Shown: positions 28,031 through 34,883, counted from the stretch's first letter. The stretch is 64,000 nt of DNA from Candidatus Woesearchaeota archaeon (GCA_964452525.1 CAYVLZ010000001.1:65742-129741); one strand, 5' to 3'. Notes: generated from the sequence alone by a model not told the origin. Translations and numbers: made by a program.

Positions 28031-29173
28031 GTGATGTCTTTATATAAGAGAAGTATTTCTGTTCTTAAGAATCTACAATTTAAGAATGGCGCTATATTAG
28101 CTACTCCTTTAGATGGTGCCTATCCTTATGTTTACCCTAGAGATGCGGTTTTTGTTACTAAGGCTTTTAATAAGTTGGGCTTATTTAAAAAATCCGAAAA
28201 GTTTTATCATTTTATGAATAAATTTGCGAGACTTGAAAAACACAAAGAAGTTTTTCATAGATACACTCAGGAAGGTTGGCCTTGTGTTACTAGAAAGAAA
28301 GAAAGTGATGTAGCTGGTTTAGTTCTACATGGGATATATGATACTTACGAATATAATAAGGATATTTCCTTCTTAGAGGTGATGTGGCCCACTGTTCAGG
28401 CATTATTGAAATTTATTGATAAAAATACAAGAAAAGGATTAGTCCATACTTATAATAGCATACATGAATTTTATAGATTAGAATTTGGTTATGAGATATG
28501 GGCTAATAGTGCATGTTGTCGCGGGTTATATGATGCTTCTGAGATAGCCAAAGCTATTGGGAATAAGAAAGATGGTAGAAGATTGAAGTTAAAAGCAGAT
28601 TTTTTGAAGAAGAATATTATAAAAAAGTTGTTTGATAAGAAAAGAAATACGTTCATAAAAAATATTAAATTTAAAAGGTATGTACATGATATCTCTCAAC
28701 TAGCACCCTTTTATTTTAATTTAGTTAATAATAAAAGAATATTAAATTCCACTATGAAGATATTGAGAAAGAATATCTGGAATAAAGATATTGGTGGTTT
28801 TAGGAGATTTAAGAAATTTGAGGTTTGTAAGGATTGGCATTGGTATACTGGTGGAAGTGGAAGTTGGATTACTCTTACTGCTTGGGGATGTAGGTTTTAT
28901 AGAGAACTAGGTCAGAAGAAATATGCTGAAGAATGTGAACAATGGATAGAAGAAGCAGCTAGATTAAATAAAGGTTTGTTACCCGAACATATTGCTACTT
29001 GTGAAGAATATGAGTTGTGGAAAGAAAATGAAATAGAATTTAACAGAAGAATTTTGTCTGAGATGAATAAAACCGAGAAAGTAGTTAAGTTATGTAAGGA
29101 CGGGGTAGTTGGCTGGGCAGTACCTTTAGCTTGGTCCCATGCTGAATATTTATCGTTAAATCATGAGGGGTGA
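28031..29173 (+). CDS. Glycoside hydrolase family 15-like (glucoamylase/glucodextranase-related)
   Basis: YPYVYPRDAVF and GLLPEHI segments resemble GH15 (alpha/alpha)6-barrel catalytic motifs; first gene of the glycolytic operon. Confidence 0.5.
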   Translation: MMSLYKRSISVLKNLQFKNGAILATPLDGAYPYVYPRDAVFVTKAFNKLGLFKKSEKFYHFMNKFARLEKHKEVFHRYTQEGWPCVTRKKESDVAGLVLHGIYDTYEYNKDISFLEVMWPTVQALLKFIDKNTRKGLVHTYNSIHEFYRLEFGYEIWANSACCRGLYDASEIAKAIGNKKDGRRLKLKADFLKKNIIKKLFDKKRNTFIKNIKFKRYVHDISQLAPFYFNLVNNKRILNSTMKILRKNIWNKDIGGFRRFKKFEVCKDWHWYTGGSGSWITLTAWGCRFYRELGQKKYAEECEQWIEEAARLNKGLLPEHIATCEEYELWKENEIEFNRRILSEMNKTEKVVKLCKDGVVGWAVPLAWSHAEYLSLNHEG

Positions 29174-29177
29174 TAAG

Positions 29178-30164
29178 ATGAGAATAGCTATAAATGGTTT
29201 AGGTAGGATTGGGAGAACTTTATTTAGAGTTGGATATAAGAAATTGAATATTTTTGCTATTAATAGTCCTTCTGATGCTAGAACTATGGCACATTTATTG
29301 GAATACGACTCTGTTTATGGGAAATTCCTTGGTAAGATAAAGTATACTAAAGATAGCTTAATTGTTAATGGTAAAAAGATTAGATTATTTTTTAAGAAAG
29401 ATCCCGAAGAGTTGCCGTGGAGAGAACTTAAGATCGATTTAGTTGCTGAATGTTCCGGGGTTTTTAGACATAGAGAGGACATGCAGAAACATTTAAGGGC
29501 AGGTGCTAAAGCTGTTGTTTTAAGTGCTCCTTGTAAAAATGATGCTGATATTACTTTGGTCAGGGGGGTTAATGATAGAAAGTATAGGCCAAGGAAACAT
29601 AAGTTGGTAAGTGTCGCTTCTTGTACTACTAATTGTTTTGTTCCTGTTGTTAAGGTTATAGATGATCATTTTGGAATTAAGAAAGGTTTCATGGTAACAA
29701 CTCATGCTTATACAGGTGATCAAAAGATTGTTGATAGTACTCATGATGATTTGAGGAGAGCTAGAGCAGCTGCTATTAATATTGTTCCTACTACAAGTGG
29801 AGCGGCAGTTTCTACGTCTAAAGTTCTTCCTAATATGAGAGGCAAATTGCATTCAAGTGCTATGAGAGTTCCGGTTCCTAGCGGATCTGTAATATATTTT
29901 ACTTGCGAAACTAAGCGAAAAAATTCCGTGGATAAAGTAAATCGTATTTTTAAGAAAGAGTCAAAGGGTAAAATGAAAGGAATTATTGAATATGCTGATA
30001 AACCACTTGTTTCTAGTGATGTTATTGGAAATTCACATTCTGCTATTTTTGATTCTTTGTTGACAGAAGTAGACGGAGATTTGTTAAAGGTAGTTGCATG
30101 GTATGATAATGAATGGGGATATAGCAATAGATTAATGGAAGTAATAAAGATGATTAAAGTTTGA
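29178..30164 (+). CDS. gap: Glyceraldehyde-3-phosphate dehydrogenase, type I (bacterial/eukaryotic type)
   Basis: MRIAINGLGRIGR Rossmann N-terminus and the ASCTTNC active-site motif. The track ORF starts at 29163; the conserved start is the ATG at 29178. Confidence 0.85.
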   Translation: MRIAINGLGRIGRTLFRVGYKKLNIFAINSPSDARTMAHLLEYDSVYGKFLGKIKYTKDSLIVNGKKIRLFFKKDPEELPWRELKIDLVAECSGVFRHREDMQKHLRAGAKAVVLSAPCKNDADITLVRGVNDRKYRPRKHKLVSVASCTTNCFVPVVKVIDDHFGIKKGFMVTTHAYTGDQKIVDSTHDDLRRARAAAINIVPTTSGAAVSTSKVLPNMRGKLHSSAMRVPVPSGSVIYFTCETKRKNSVDKVNRIFKKESKGKMKGIIEYADKPLVSSDVIGNSHSAIFDSLLTEVDGDLLKVVAWYDNEWGYSNRLMEVIKMIKV

Positions 30165-33367: not shown

Positions 33368-33996
33368 ACCGTTTAATTATAAATTTTAAGACATACAAAC
33401 AGGGTAGAGATGTTTTAAAGTTAGTTAAGAAGATAGATAAAATTGATAAAAATATAATAGTAGGATTGCAGGCTTCAGATATCTATAATGTCTTTAAGAA
33501 TACTAAATTAAGGATTTATGCACAACATGTTGATTATTTTAGGACTGGAAGAAATACAGGATTTATTTTACCAGAGGCTGTTAAAGCAAATGGAGCTGAA
33601 GGTACTTTCTTAAATCATTCGGAGCATAGATTAAAATTTGATGATTTAAAAAAGACTGTTAAGAGATGTAGGGAAATTAATCTTAAAACACTTGTTTTCG
33701 TTTCTGGTTTGAAGGGTGCTAAGCTCATGGAAAGGCTTAAACCTACCTATATTGTTGTTGAGCCCCCTGAATTAGTTGCTGGCAATAAGTCTGTTAGTAA
33801 ATATAAATCTGGTCTGATTAAAAGTATTTCTAAAAAACTGAAATCAGATTTTATTGTTGGGGCAGGCATTCATAGCAAAGAAGATGTTGAACTTGCTTTG
33901 AAATTTGGTGCTAAGGGCGTTGTTGTTAGTTCATCAGTTACTAAAACAAAGAAGCCTGAGAAGATAATTAAAGAATTTTTAGGGGTGTTAAAGTGA
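33364..33996 (+). CDS. tpiA: Triosephosphate isomerase (short archaeal type)
   Basis: INFKTY, NHSEHR and VEPPELV catalytic motifs. Confidence 0.8.
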   Translation: MNRLIINFKTYKQGRDVLKLVKKIDKIDKNIIVGLQASDIYNVFKNTKLRIYAQHVDYFRTGRNTGFILPEAVKANGAEGTFLNHSEHRLKFDDLKKTVKRCREINLKTLVFVSGLKGAKLMERLKPTYIVVEPPELVAGNKSVSKYKSGLIKSISKKLKSDFIVGAGIHSKEDVELALKFGAKGVVVSSSVTKTKKPEKIIKEFLGVLK

Positions 33997-34883
33997 CTTA
34001 TTCCGTTGGCGTAGATTTTGGAGGAACTAAGATCAGGACAGGTTTGGTTAAAGGTAATAAACTTCAGAAGGTTATAGAAATTCCTACAGGTCCGATAAAG
34101 GAAAGAGATATAATTGTTGATAAAATAATCAGTACGATAGATTATGTCATTTCTGATATTAATAAAAGAGATATTTCTGGTATCGGAGTCGGTGTTCCTG
34201 GAGTGGTCAATAGGAAAAAAGGTAGCATAGTTAATCTTACCAATATTCCTGGATTTGGGAATTTTAAGTTAAGTAAAACATTGAAGAAAAAATTTAATTT
34301 AAAAGTTCGTTTAGATAATGATACTAATCTTTATGGATTAGGAGAAGCAATTTATGGTTCAGGTAAAGATAAAAAAAATATAGTCTGTCTAACTGTTGGT
34401 ACTGGTTTGGGAGGTACAATAATTGTTGATAAGCACGTATATGAAGGAAATGGTAATGCTGGTGAATTTGGACATATGATAATTATTAAAGATGGTTTGA
34501 AATGTAAATGCGGTTCTAGGGGATGTTTAGAGCAGTATGTTTCTTCAAGGGCAATAAGAAGGTATTCAAAAAAATTTCTTGGAAAAATTATGCTTCCTCT
34601 AGAGATTGAGAATATGGCTAGGAGAGGAAATAGAAAAGCTAAGAGAGTTTATGATGAGGCAGGCAAATATCTGGGAATCGGTTTAACTAATTTAAACAAT
34701 ATCTTGAATCCCGATATCTTTGTATTGGGGGGAGGGTTATCTTATTCTGGTAGTATTTTGATAGAACCAGCTAAAAGGGTTCTTAAAGAATATTCTTTTG
34801 TTAAGCCTGCTAAGGTAGTTAGGGCTGAGTTAAAAAGAAACTCTGGTGTTATGGGAGCAGCTTATTTGGTATCTTTTGGTTAG
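33993..34883 (+). CDS. ROK-family glucokinase
   Basis: GVDFGGTKIR N-terminal ATP motif and the ROK Zn motif CKCGSRGCLE. Confidence 0.8.
   Translation: MTYSVGVDFGGTKIRTGLVKGNKLQKVIEIPTGPIKERDIIVDKIISTIDYVISDINKRDISGIGVGVPGVVNRKKGSIVNLTNIPGFGNFKLSKTLKKKFNLKVRLDNDTNLYGLGEAIYGSGKDKKNIVCLTVGTGLGGTIIVDKHVYEGNGNAGEFGHMIIIKDGLKCKCGSRGCLEQYVSSRAIRRYSKKFLGKIMLPLEIENMARRGNRKAKRVYDEAGKYLGIGLTNLNNILNPDIFVLGGGLSYSGSILIEPAKRVLKEYSFVKPAKVVRAELKRNSGVMGAAYLVSFG

What the first reader, a model, noticed from the sequence alone, without database searches (positions are those of the whole stretch)
28031..34883. Complete upper and middle glycolysis encoded as one translationally coupled 8-gene operon, with a bacterial-type GAPDH
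GH15-like hydrolase, type I GAPDH (ASCTTNC), PGK, cupin PGI, PfkB kinase, class I archaeal FBA, TIM and ROK glucokinase lie head-to-tail with 1-11 nt overlaps (ATGA, TAATG). One TATA/RBS region precedes them and a hairpin follows the last gene. Archaea usually scatter these genes and use a type II GAPDH. The presence of a complete pathway is itself informative for a reduced-genome archaeon.
Basis: partly seen in the sequence, partly recalled or inferred. Interest (0 to 1): 0.55.

Follow-up and report, generated by a model that had tools for sequence, protein, structure and literature searches.

The report
Compact glycolysis operon in DPANN archaeon
A tiny-genome archaeon packs a sugar-releasing hydrolase and what appear to be all seven enzymes that turn glucose into 3-phosphoglycerate into one overlapping gene string; the layout is shared by its relatives and points to a ribokinase-like kinase as the phosphofructokinase these archaea are usually said to lack.

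Summary
Eight co-directional ORFs at 28031-34883 abut or overlap. They follow a TATA-like box plus Shine-Dalgarno site and end at a T-rich tract and a hairpin. Seven assignments rest on homology: a catalytic-domain-only GH15-like hydrolase, type I GAPDH, archaeal-type PGK, cupin PGI, archaeal class IA FBP aldolase, archaeal TIM and a zinc-motif ROK glucokinase. The PfkB-family kinase cannot be assigned by sequence or fold. It fails the ribokinase model, and its role as phosphofructokinase rests on context.

The arrangement is not unique to this window. In Pacearchaeota/Woesearchaeota assemblies, 23 of 23 loci with a PfkB of at least 59% identity and enough downstream flank carry the aldolase gene just downstream. 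21 of 21 carry tpi, and 12 of 17 carry gap and pgk upstream. One Pacearchaeon has a near-identical array of seven overlapping genes. Type I GAPDH is routinely annotated in this lineage.

So the operon is real and probably glycolytic, but it is a lineage trait. The useful new point is that published surveys call glycolysis incomplete in these archaea for lack of pfk, and this conserved PfkB kinase is a testable candidate. No enolase, PGM or pyruvate kinase lies in the window.

The parts
27991..27998 (+). TATA-box-like element (TTTATATA), 43 nt before ATG 28034; putative operon promoter
   Evidence: Exact match to TTTAWATA. It is the only exact match in the 83-nt spacer after the S3Ae gene. Function is inferred.
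28023..28030 (+). Shine-Dalgarno site GAGGTGAT for the first cistron
   Evidence: Complementary to the 16S rRNA 3' end found in the same window. Its spacing to the ATG is the same as at gap, cPGI and rok.
28034..29173 (+). GH15-like glycoside hydrolase, catalytic (alpha/alpha)6 domain only, no signal peptide seen; predicted to release glucose from alpha-glucosides
   Evidence: PF00723 scores 27.5 bits (cutoff 22). TIGR01577 gives E 3.5e-31 over model positions 255-607 only. The AF2 model has pLDDT 92.4. Foldseek top hits are the 5Z3A-series catalytic-domain-only glycosidase, GH15 dextran dextrinase 9JU0 and bacterial glucoamylase 1LF6. E145 and E318 are invariant in 48 homologues. E145 aligns with the WED glutamate of 9JU0.
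29178..30164 (+). gap: type I (bacterial-type) phosphorylating GAPDH; Asp32->Ser and Pro188->Thr suggest relaxed NAD/NADP preference
   Evidence: TIGR01534 scores 401.9 against a cutoff of 367.2; type II scores 22 bits. Best PDB matches are Aquifex 2EP7 and Thermotoga 1HDG, E 1e-113. SCTTNC Cys149 and TTHAYT are present. D32S/P188T is rare among the hits.
30161..31309 (+). pgk: phosphoglycerate kinase, archaeal type (TTG start overlapping the gap stop)
   Evidence: PF00162 gives E 2e-92. The best PDB match is Pyrococcus horikoshii 2CUN at 213 bits, against 160 bits for Thermotoga 1VPE.
31306..31746 (+). cupin-type phosphoglucose isomerase (short, 146 aa)
   Evidence: PF06560 GPI scores 59.8 bits (cutoff 20.7). 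The match to Pyrococcus cPGI structures has E 1e-18, with TKGHxH...E and GH ligands aligned. In relatives the PGI slot of the cluster is filled by either this cupin or a SIS-type PGI.
31743..32630 (+). PfkB/ribokinase-family sugar kinase; proposed ATP-dependent 6-phosphofructokinase
   Evidence: PF00294 gives E 1.5e-37. No NCBIfam equivalog cutoff is reached; ribokinase scores 109 against 299.65. PDB and Foldseek show only a generic ribokinase fold at about 20% identity. It lies between PGI and aldolase here, and fba lies directly downstream in 23/23 related loci.
32630..33367 (+). fba: archaeal-type class I (IA) fructose-1,6-bisphosphate aldolase
   Evidence: The match to Thermoproteus tenax FBPA 1OJX scores 232 bits, E 6e-68, against 114 bits for MJ0400. 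The LAYDxG Asp, YPRG Tyr and the Lys-containing IKxKY stretch are aligned.
33364..33996 (+). tpi: archaeal short triosephosphate isomerase
   Evidence: NF003302 scores 198.7 against a cutoff of 132. Best PDB matches are Pyrococcus woesei 1HG3 and M. jannaschii 2H6R. The NFK, NHSE and VEPPE motifs are aligned.
33993..34883 (+). ROK-family kinase with zinc motif; predicted ATP-glucokinase
   Evidence: PF00480 gives E 3e-66; TIGR00744 scores 204.8, below its cutoff of 260. The top three PDB matches are all glucokinases: 3VGK, 2QM1 and 3VOV. The CKCGSRGC, EFGH and DNDTN motifs are present.
34887..34903 (+). T-rich tract (TTTTTTCTTTATTTTCT) right after the last stop; likely archaeal oligo-T terminator
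   Evidence: Function is inferred from general knowledge of archaeal termination.
34924..34944 (.). 7-bp GC-rich palindromic hairpin (GCAGGCT N7 AGCCTGC)
   Evidence: The consensus scan scores it as terminator-like only on the minus strand, so its role for the operon is uncertain.

Best explanation
The window comes from a DPANN archaeon of the Pacearchaeota/Woesearchaeota group.

Positions 28034-34883 form one tightly packed catabolic gene array, in this order: cytoplasmic GH15-like glucoside hydrolase, type I GAPDH, PGK, cupin PGI, PfkB-family kinase, class IA FBP aldolase, TIM and ROK glucokinase.

The proposed pathway runs as follows:
1. The hydrolase frees glucose from an imported or stored alpha-glucoside.
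2. ROK phosphorylates the glucose.
3. The cupin PGI makes fructose-6-P.
4. The PfkB kinase makes fructose-1,6-P2.
5. The aldolase and TIM give two glyceraldehyde-3-P.
6. GAPDH and PGK yield 3-phosphoglycerate with ATP gain.

Expression is most likely from one promoter upstream of the hydrolase gene, as a leadered polycistronic mRNA. Each internal cistron has its own Shine-Dalgarno site inside the preceding gene, and its start overlaps or abuts the preceding stop.

Shown: gene order, overlaps, motifs, family memberships and conservation of the cluster.

Inferred: single transcript, direction of flux, substrate of the hydrolase, and the 6-phosphofructokinase activity of the PfkB kinase.
For: Archaeal identity:
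- Archaeal SSU, LSU and SRP RNAs.
- S3Ae, DnaG-type primase and GAN-type DHH proteins.
- Best protein hits are Pacearchaeota/Woesearchaeota.

Anatomy.

Families:
- Pfam and NCBIfam.
- cPGI ligands.
- The aldolase is much closer to the characterised T. tenax FBPA than to MJ0400.
- TIM and PGK are archaeal types.
- GAPDH is type I.
- ROK is closest to glucokinases.
- GH15-like fold and invariant glutamates.

Conservation:
- The order gap-pgk...pfkB-fba-[cPGI-GH15]-tpi...rok is co-directional in more than 20 assemblies.
- fba follows pfkB in 23/23 loci, and tpi is present in 21/21.
- L047/L048 carry gap-pgk-cPGI-GH-pfkB-fba-tpi as seven overlapping genes.

Functional coherence in relatives:
- A SIS-type PGI replaces the cupin PGI in the same cluster.
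- A GH15-ROK overlapping pair exists on its own.
- NADH-reoxidising D-2-hydroxyacid dehydrogenase and NuoF plus [FeFe]-hydrogenase genes are inserted in the cluster.

Polycistronic signature:
- SD motifs precede 7/8 operon starts against about 1 expected.
- Elsewhere in the window, first genes mostly have TATA-like motifs (one mismatch allowed) at -23 to -33 and no SD. SD sites there occur partly at internal, overlapping genes.
- Internal TATA-like motifs occur at 1 of 7 starts against 0.6 expected.
Against: - The PfkB kinase has no specific similarity to any characterised kinase. Its best full-length NCBIfam match is ribokinase, although far below the cutoff. Its structural neighbours are ribokinases and adenosine kinases.
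- A one-mismatch TATA-like motif lies 23 nt before the pfkB start. In several relatives, unrelated or reverse-strand genes separate pgk from pfkB. Two or three ancestral transcription units are therefore plausible.
- The GAPDH carries D32S/P188T, a signature that I recall from memory for NADP-using, often anabolic, type I enzymes.
- The aldolase and ROK scores are below NCBIfam equivalog/subfamily cutoffs.
- No transcript data exist.
- Lower glycolysis (PGM, enolase, PK/PPDK) is not in the window. This rests plus my reading of the remaining ORF translations.
Confidence: 0.68

Rival explanations
1. The PfkB-family gene is not a 6-phosphofructokinase. It would instead be a ribokinase, nucleoside kinase, ribose-1-phosphate kinase or fructokinase. 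Glycolysis would then be interrupted at fructose-6-P as published surveys state. Hexose-P would reach triose-P through the pentose-phosphate or RuBisCO-type bypass, and the aldolase would work mainly towards FBP.
For: - The best NCBIfam alignments are to ribokinase (109 bits) and ribose-1-P kinases (89 and 69 bits).
- Foldseek neighbours are ribokinases.
- Published genome surveys report no pfk and a pentose-phosphate bypass in Woesearchaeota.
Against: - All those scores are far below the equivalog cutoffs.
- The gene sits between PGI and aldolase in pathway order, with 4-nt and 1-nt overlaps.
- fba is directly downstream in 23/23 related loci.
- No pentose or nucleoside-pathway gene is among the 25 most frequent Pfam families near the cluster.
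- Archaeal 6-phosphofructokinases of the PFK-B family are established (review PMC12525153).
Confidence: 0.25
2. The array is transcribed as two or three units, for example GH15-gap-pgk-cPGI and pfkB-fba-tpi-rok. The overlaps would reflect only general genome compaction.
For: - A TATA-like motif with one mismatch lies 23 nt before the pfkB GTG, the spacing seen at leaderless genes in this window.
- In relatives, pgk and pfkB are often separated by unrelated or reverse-strand genes.
- Overlapping gene pairs are common elsewhere in the window.
Against: - One such motif among seven starts is what chance gives (0.6 expected).
- pfkB has its own SD at -15, a feature seen partly at internal, overlapping genes elsewhere in this window.
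- There is no T-run of 6 or more between 30580 and 34886.
Confidence: 0.2
3. The cluster is mainly gluconeogenic or amphibolic: triose-P would be converted to hexose-P for cell-envelope sugars, with an NADP-linked GAPDH.
For: - D32S and P188T in the GAPDH.
- All the non-kinase steps are reversible.
- Glycosyltransferase genes accompany the cluster in relatives.
Against: - Two ATP-consuming sugar kinases and a glycoside hydrolase are co-encoded.
- No FBPase gene is in the array, nor among the 25 most frequent Pfam families near the relatives' clusters.
- Fermentative NADH sinks (2-hydroxyacid dehydrogenase, [FeFe]-hydrogenase) are embedded in the relatives' clusters.
Confidence: 0.08

Closest known systems
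Pacearchaeota/Woesearchaeota glycolytic clusters in public MAGs (e.g. GCA_023139205.1 contig JAGLOA010000003.1 = L048; L002-L029, L044-L047)
   Same: They share the same protein families at 50-73% identity, the same strand, and the same core order gap-pgk ... pfkB-fba ... tpi ... rok. L047/L048 have seven of the genes overlapping in the order gap-pgk-cPGI-GH-pfkB-fba-tpi.
   Different: - In the window the GH15-like gene is first and rok is fused to the 3' end, giving eight contiguous genes with no insert.
- The window's ROK is a zinc-motif type, only 30-35% identical to the ROK of most relatives.
- Its GAPDH falls in a small separate group with P0002 and P0003 in a rough NJ tree.
- I found no paper describing these clusters.
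Aeropyrum pernix-type ATP-dependent modified EMP pathway (ROK glucokinase, PFK-B family ATP-PFK, class IA aldolase)
   Same: It uses the same combination of a ROK glucokinase, a ribokinase-superfamily PFK and an archaeal class I aldolase (review PMC12525153, citing Hansen & Schonheit 2001 and Hansen et al. 2002).
   Different: From memory, A. pernix uses a PGI/PMI, GAPN/GAPOR and a type II GAPDH, and its genes are not in one array. Similarity of the window kinase to the A. pernix PFK was not tested, because I could not obtain that sequence.
Bacterial gap operons (e.g. Bacillus cggR-gapA-pgk-tpiA-gpmI-eno; from memory)
   Same: A type I GAPDH heads a co-directional block with pgk and tpi.
   Different: The bacterial operons cover the lower half of glycolysis and have a regulator. 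This array covers the hydrolase plus the upper and middle parts, has no regulator, pgm or eno, and its PGK and TIM are archaeal types.
Thermoproteus tenax fba-pfp and pgk-gap operons (from memory, Siebers et al. 2001)
   Same: There is an archaeal precedent for co-transcription of a phosphofructokinase with the class IA aldolase. The window aldolase scores 232 bits against the T. tenax enzyme.
   Different: The T. tenax PFK is PPi-dependent and of the PFK-A family, and its GAPDH is type II.
Thermococcales cupin-type PGI
   Same: Same family with the same metal-ligand motif.
   Different: The window protein is 146 aa against about 189 aa. Relative to the solved enzymes it lacks about 12 N-terminal and about 20 C-terminal residues.

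Membership tests
Type I (bacterial/eukaryotic) GAPDH, TIGR01534 | Score above the curated equivalog cutoff | tested here: met
   401.9 bits against a cutoff of 367.2.
Type I (bacterial/eukaryotic) GAPDH, TIGR01534 | Catalytic Cys in SCTTNC and His in the THA(Y)T motif; N-terminal GxGxxG | tested here: met
   ASCTTNC (Cys149), TTHAYT and INGLGRIGR are present.
Type I (bacterial/eukaryotic) GAPDH, TIGR01534 | NAD-specificity residues Asp32 and Pro188 (a feature of NAD-specific members, not of the family) | tested here: not met
   Ser and Thr occupy these positions. 113 of 119 database hits have Asp32 and 105 have Pro188.
Type II archaeal GAPDH, NF003251 | Score above the curated cutoff | tested here: not met
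   22.4 bits against a cutoff of 185.
Cupin-type phosphoglucose isomerase, PF06560 | Pfam gathering score, and the His-His-Glu-His metal site | tested here: met
   59.8 bits against 20.7. TKGHRH...EE and GYGH align with TKGHFH...AE and GWAH of Pyrococcus cPGI.
Cupin-type phosphoglucose isomerase, PF06560 | G6P/F6P isomerase activity | not testable with these tools
   Needs an enzyme assay.
PFK-B family ATP-dependent 6-phosphofructokinase (archaeal type) | PfkB/ribokinase fold with GG, NxxE and GAGD motifs | tested here: met
   PF00294 gives E 1.5e-37. GGGG, N191-E194 and T247-G-A-G-D251 are invariant in 46 homologues. The AF2 model gives TM about 0.8 to ribokinases.
PFK-B family ATP-dependent 6-phosphofructokinase (archaeal type) | Specific similarity to a characterised 6-PFK (A. 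pernix PFK, E. coli Pfk-2) | tested here: inconclusive
   No PFK is among the PDB matches at E<=1e-10 (phmmer) or E<=1e-15 (profile). The hexose-kinase model TIGR03168 scores only 45 bits over the C-terminus.
PFK-B family ATP-dependent 6-phosphofructokinase (archaeal type) | Phosphorylation of fructose-6-P | not testable with these tools
   Only context supports it: the gene lies between PGI and aldolase, and fba is downstream in 23/23 loci.
Ribokinase, TIGR02152 | Score above the equivalog cutoff | tested here: not met
   109 bits against a cutoff of 299.65.
Archaeal class IA fructose-bisphosphate aldolase | Closer to characterised FBPA than to the paralogous ADH synthase; Schiff-base Lys, Tyr and Asp conserved | tested here: met
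   1OJX scores 232 bits against 114 bits for MJ0400. LAYDxG, YPRG and the Lys-containing IKxKY stretch are aligned.
Archaeal class IA fructose-bisphosphate aldolase | NCBIfam equivalog NF040816 cutoff | tested here: not met
   179.9 bits against a cutoff of 430. The ADH-synthase-named model PRK07226 also stays below its cutoff (193.8 against 241).
Archaeal triosephosphate isomerase, NF003302 | Score above cutoff; catalytic Lys, His and Glu | tested here: met
   198.7 bits against 132. NFK, NHSE and VEPPE are aligned with 1HG3.
ROK-family glucokinase, TIGR00744 | Score above the subfamily cutoff | tested here: not met
   204.8 bits against a cutoff of 260.35. The ROK Pfam model itself is met (224 bits).
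ROK-family glucokinase, TIGR00744 | Zinc motif CxCGxxGC and sugar-binding ExGH / DNDxN | tested here: met
   CKCGSRGC, EFGH and DNDTN are present. The top three PDB matches are glucokinases.
Glycoside hydrolase family 15 | Pfam gathering score and the (alpha/alpha)6 catalytic fold | tested here: met
   PF00723 scores 27.5 against 22 (marginal). The AF2 model has pLDDT 92. Top Foldseek hits are GH15-type enzymes (5Z3A series, 9JU0, 1LF6), TM 0.68-0.75.
Glycoside hydrolase family 15 | Catalytic acid and base glutamates | tested here: inconclusive
   E145 aligns with the Glu of WED in 9JU0. E145 and E318 are invariant. The base was assigned by motif resemblance only.
Operon (single transcription unit) | One primary transcript covering all genes | not testable with these tools
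   Indirect only: overlaps, SD pattern, and no internal signals above chance.

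The most novel reading that the evidence does not exclude
The conserved PfkB-family kinase of this cluster is the unrecognised ATP-dependent 6-phosphofructokinase of Pacearchaeota/Woesearchaeota. The class IA aldolase and cupin or SIS-type PGI beside it would supply the other upper-glycolysis steps that surveys often report missing.

If so, the widely repeated statement that these DPANN archaea lack pfk and have a broken EMP pathway would be an annotation artefact. Many of them would instead run a self-sufficient sugar fermentation encoded in one conserved gene island.

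A second layer concerns the window's GAPDH sub-lineage. Its D32S/P188T signature may mean that it makes NADPH as well as NADH.
Probability: 0.55. Interest if true: 0.55.

Novelty: new variant of a known kind. Interest (0 to 1): 0.42.

Why it matters
Metabolic reconstructions of DPANN archaea are used to argue that they depend on hosts. For Woesearchaeota and Pacearchaeota, a missing phosphofructokinase is one of the standard gaps cited.

A conserved array that places a ribokinase-like kinase exactly at the PFK position, in pathway order and beside the aldolase in every sampled relative, gives a concrete candidate. One enzyme assay can test it.

If confirmed, energy metabolism in a large and abundant archaeal group would need re-annotation. 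The operon itself is otherwise made of ordinary enzymes, and its existence is a lineage trait rather than a singular event.

Tried and rejected
- **Exact-sequence look-up.** Looking up the window's GAPDH (both start variants) found no encoding contig. Taxonomy therefore rests on best hits only.
- **Sigma-70 promoter scan.** It found 38 sites against 33.5 +/- 5.8 expected. This is uninformative for an archaeon.
- **Bacterial-type terminator scan.** It scores the hairpin only on the minus strand. I therefore do not call it the operon terminator.
- **PfkB specificity.** phmmer, profile-HMM and AlphaFold+Foldseek comparisons with solved structures all return a generic ribokinase fold at about 20% identity, with no discrimination.
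- **GAPDH origin.** A neighbour-joining tree of 137 type I sequences separates the window/P0002/P0003 group from the main Pacearchaeota/Woesearchaeota group. Its deep nodes are unresolved and most sequences are unnamed, so I claim no donor lineage.
- **Lower glycolysis.** I searched for it in the window and around the relatives' clusters (top 25 families only) and found none.
- **Cupin as PMI.** I considered that the cupin might be a mannose-6-P isomerase. A different, PF01050-type cupin sits next to rok in relatives, but the window's cupin is PF06560.
- **Aldolase as ADH synthase.** I considered ADH synthase (AroA') and rejected it on the 232 against 114 bit difference.

Full report
**Source organism.** The window carries archaeal SSU and LSU rRNA genes and an archaeal SRP RNA. 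It also encodes ribosomal protein S3Ae, a Toprim (DnaG-type) primase, a GAN-type DHH nuclease and a PolX polymerase. By my reading of the translations, a thermosome, SRP54/FtsY and TFIIB are present too. GC content is about 32%. The closest database proteins are annotated Candidatus Pacearchaeota, Woesearchaeota or Nanoarchaeota. The source is therefore a DPANN archaeon of that group. The exact proteins exist in the public collection on one 140.8-kb NCBI contig, without a name.

**Observation.** Eight + strand ORFs occupy 28031-34883.
- Five junctions are 4-nt start/stop overlaps: TTGA, ATGA, GTGA, ATGA and GTGA. One is TAATG.
- The reported 11-nt overlap between the first two genes is better read as a 4-nt spacer. 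The GAPDH Pfam match begins at residue 6 of the long ORF. The database copy begins at that Met (P0001, 328 aa). GGGGTGAT lies 3 nt before ATG 29178, the spacing also seen at GH15 (ATG 28034), cPGI and rok.
- A GAGG/GGGG core lies 11-15 nt before 7 of the 8 starts, against about 1 expected. It complements the 16S 3' end found in the same window.
- Upstream there is an exact TTTATATA at 27991.
- Downstream, a T6-led T-rich tract follows the stop directly, and a 7-bp hairpin lies at 34924-34944.

**Expression signals.** Across the window, first genes mostly show a TATA-like motif (one mismatch allowed) 23-33 nt before the start codon and no SD. This is the pattern of leaderless archaeal mRNAs. 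SD motifs occur at the internal cistrons of this array and at six other genes, two of which overlap their upstream neighbour. That fits a polycistronic message with SD-dependent internal initiation.

Only one internal start (pfkB) has a one-mismatch TATA-like motif at a promoter-like distance, against 0.6 expected by chance. The sigma-70 scan is at background level and does not apply to archaea. A single transcript is thus likely but unproven.

**Enzyme assignments.**
- *GAPDH.* It passes the type I equivalog cutoff and scores 22 bits on the type II model. Its best solved relatives are Aquifex and Thermotoga enzymes.
- *PGK.* It is closer to the Pyrococcus enzyme than to bacterial ones.
- *TIM.* It is the short archaeal type and passes its cutoff.
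- *Aldolase.* It scores 232 bits against the characterised Thermoproteus tenax class IA FBP aldolase and 114 bits against MJ0400. The catalytic Asp and Tyr and the Lys-containing stretch are aligned.
- *Cupin.* It belongs to the cupin-PGI family, with the metal-ligand motifs aligned to Pyrococcus cPGI. It is shortened at both ends.
- *ROK protein.* It has the zinc and sugar-binding motifs, and its three best solved matches are glucokinases.
- *First gene.* It is a distant GH15-type catalytic domain. It has a marginal Pfam hit and E 3.5e-31 to the C-terminal two thirds of TIGR01577. The AlphaFold model is confident (pLDDT 92). Its nearest folds are a catalytic-domain-only glycosidase (5Z3A series), GH15 dextran dextrinase and bacterial glucoamylase. 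From memory, the 5Z3A protein is the GH15 isomaltose glucohydrolase of Kribbella flavida. Two glutamates are invariant in 48 homologues, and one aligns with the acid catalyst position of 9JU0.

Only the GAPDH is clearly of bacterial type.

**The weak link.** The PfkB-family kinase reaches no NCBIfam cutoff; ribokinase scores 109 against 299.65. It has no close solved relative. Its model (pLDDT 86) matches ribokinases, adenosine kinases and other family members equally, at about 20% identity. Homology therefore cannot name its substrate.

**Comparative genomics.** A scan of species-representative genomes with this kinase returned 42 loci. I mapped the eight window proteins onto these loci and onto contigs fetched for closer homologues.
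- The core is conserved and co-directional: gap-pgk ... pfkB-fba-[cPGI-GH15]-tpi ... rok.
- Every locus with a kinase of at least 59% identity and enough downstream flank has fba within 2.5 kb downstream (23/23) and tpi within 6 kb (21/21).
- gap and pgk lie upstream in 12/17.
- A Pacearchaeon (L047/L048) has gap-pgk-cPGI-GH-pfkB-fba-tpi as seven overlapping genes.
- In L046 a SIS-type PGI takes the place of the cupin PGI.
- In L049 the GH15-like gene overlaps a ROK kinase gene.
- Accessory genes inside the relatives' clusters include D-2-hydroxyacid dehydrogenase, NuoF-like plus [FeFe]-hydrogenase, glycoside hydrolases and glycosyltransferases.

This looks like a sugar-fermentation island. 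The window shows its most compact form, with the hydrolase moved to the front and a different, zinc-motif ROK fused at the end. The kinase's fixed position beside the aldolase, and between PGI and aldolase here, is the argument that it is the 6-phosphofructokinase. Archaeal PFKs of the PFK-B family are established (PMC12525153).

**Literature.**
- Liu et al. 2018 state that all Woesearchaeotal genomes examined lacked pfk (PMC5994134).
- Li et al. 2021 state that Pfk is widely absent in DPANN, and count only PfkA and PfkC (PMC8407392).
- Huang et al. 2021 call the lack of pfk common (PMC8421398).
- A 2024 study lists gapA as type I GAPDH in Woesearchaeota and again misses pfk and fbaA in most MAGs (PMC11606122).

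I found no paper that describes this cluster or proposes a PfkB-family PFK for DPANN. Subscription journals are not covered by the library. The type I GAPDH is therefore already known for the lineage. The cluster and the PFK candidate appear not to have been pointed out.

**GAPDH detail.** The window enzyme and its two closest relatives (P0002, P0003) carry Ser/Thr instead of Asp32 and Thr/Ser instead of Pro188. By contrast, 113 and 105 of the 119 database hits keep Asp and Pro. From memory of work on Bacillus and chloroplast enzymes, these positions govern NAD versus NADP preference, so dual cofactor use is possible. In a rough neighbour-joining tree this trio separates from the GAPDHs of the syntenic relatives. 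The deep nodes are unreliable.

**Limits.**
- No enolase, PGM, PK or PPDK gene is in the 64-kb window or among the commonest families near the relatives' clusters. Completeness of the pathway in the genome cannot be judged from the window.
- Some related loci are labelled Dojkabacteria, Patescibacteria or Methanosarcinales. These may be binning errors or transfers, and I cannot tell which.

**Verdict.** This is a real, probably co-transcribed catabolic array for glucoside to 3-phosphoglycerate, typical of its lineage. It is built of known enzyme families, with one context-assigned step that bears on a published gap in DPANN metabolism.

Noticed in passing
window 35101-35626 (+): A tRNA-Thr(UGU) gene missed by ARAGORN and Rfam.
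- The exons are 35101-35138 and 35592-35626. Joined, they give a perfect 73-nt cloverleaf.
- They are split at the canonical 37/38 site by a 453-nt intron.
- The intron's ORF (35193-35591, 132 aa) is a PD-(D/E)XK endonuclease (PF11645, E 7.7e-22). Its stop codon is the last three bases of the intron.
- The pre-tRNA fold shows a bulge, 4-bp helix, bulge arrangement at the splice sites, as in archaeal BHB introns.
- From memory, PF11645 is the family of I-Ssp6803I, a homing endonuclease of a cyanobacterial tRNA group I intron. An ORF-bearing archaeal tRNA intron seems unusual and deserves its own look.
   Followed up: partly
window 35629-35733 (+): A second undetected tRNA, with anticodon loop UUGACGU and so probably Val(GAC). 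It has a 17-nt insertion in the D-loop region and about 20 nt before the T-arm, which suggests non-canonical introns. It was found only in the sensitive Rfam run (42.7 bits) and missed.
   Followed up: partly
window 59336-61497 and 61863-64000 (+): Both rRNA genes carry ORF-bearing insertions.
- The SSU spans 2162 nt for 1478 model positions. It holds ORF 60240-60827, which looks LAGLIDADG-like by eye but has no Pfam hit.
- The LSU holds ORF 63058-63678, which matches LAGLIDADG_3 (E 1.5e-7).
   Followed up: partly
window 29178-30164; P0002, P0003: The type I GAPDH has Asp32->Ser and Pro188->Thr. It shares this only with its two nearest relatives among about 136 sequences. This is a possible NADP or dual-cofactor enzyme.
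   Followed up: partly
whole window: Translation-signal dichotomy. First genes mostly have a TATA-like motif (one mismatch allowed) 23-33 nt before the start codon and no Shine-Dalgarno motif, which is leaderless-like. SD motifs occur mainly at the internal cistrons of the glycolytic array and at some other overlapping genes.
   Followed up: partly
L009, L010, L014, L015 (e.g. L014:14267-17046; L010:5806-8569): In several relatives, NuoF-like and [FeFe]-hydrogenase genes are inserted inside the glycolytic cluster, between tpi and rok or between gap and pgk. In eight loci a D-2-hydroxyacid dehydrogenase sits there. These are candidate NADH sinks co-located with glycolysis.
   Followed up: partly
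L046:4171-5103 vs L047:6411-6875; L044/L046 cupin before rok: There is non-orthologous displacement within the same cluster: a SIS-type PGI in some genomes and a cupin PGI in others. Separately, a PF01050 (mannose-6-P isomerase type) cupin is paired with a zinc-less ROK kinase and a GHMP kinase.
   Followed up: partly
window 15725-17567 (-): Three tandem paralogous ORFs of 162-172 aa with no Pfam match, next to a DDE transposase gene at 13889-15040.
   Followed up: no
window 40738-40834 (-), 56814-56915 (+), 57751-57881 (+): Three further tRNA genes of 97-131 nt, long enough to contain introns. Rfam found them but ARAGORN did not.
   Followed up: no
L007, L024, and hits P0282, P0292, P0315: Contigs or proteins carrying this archaeal-type cluster or its GH15-like gene are labelled Dojkabacteria, Patescibacteria or Methanosarcinales in public records. 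This is likely mis-binning of DPANN contigs, though transfer is not excluded.
   Followed up: no
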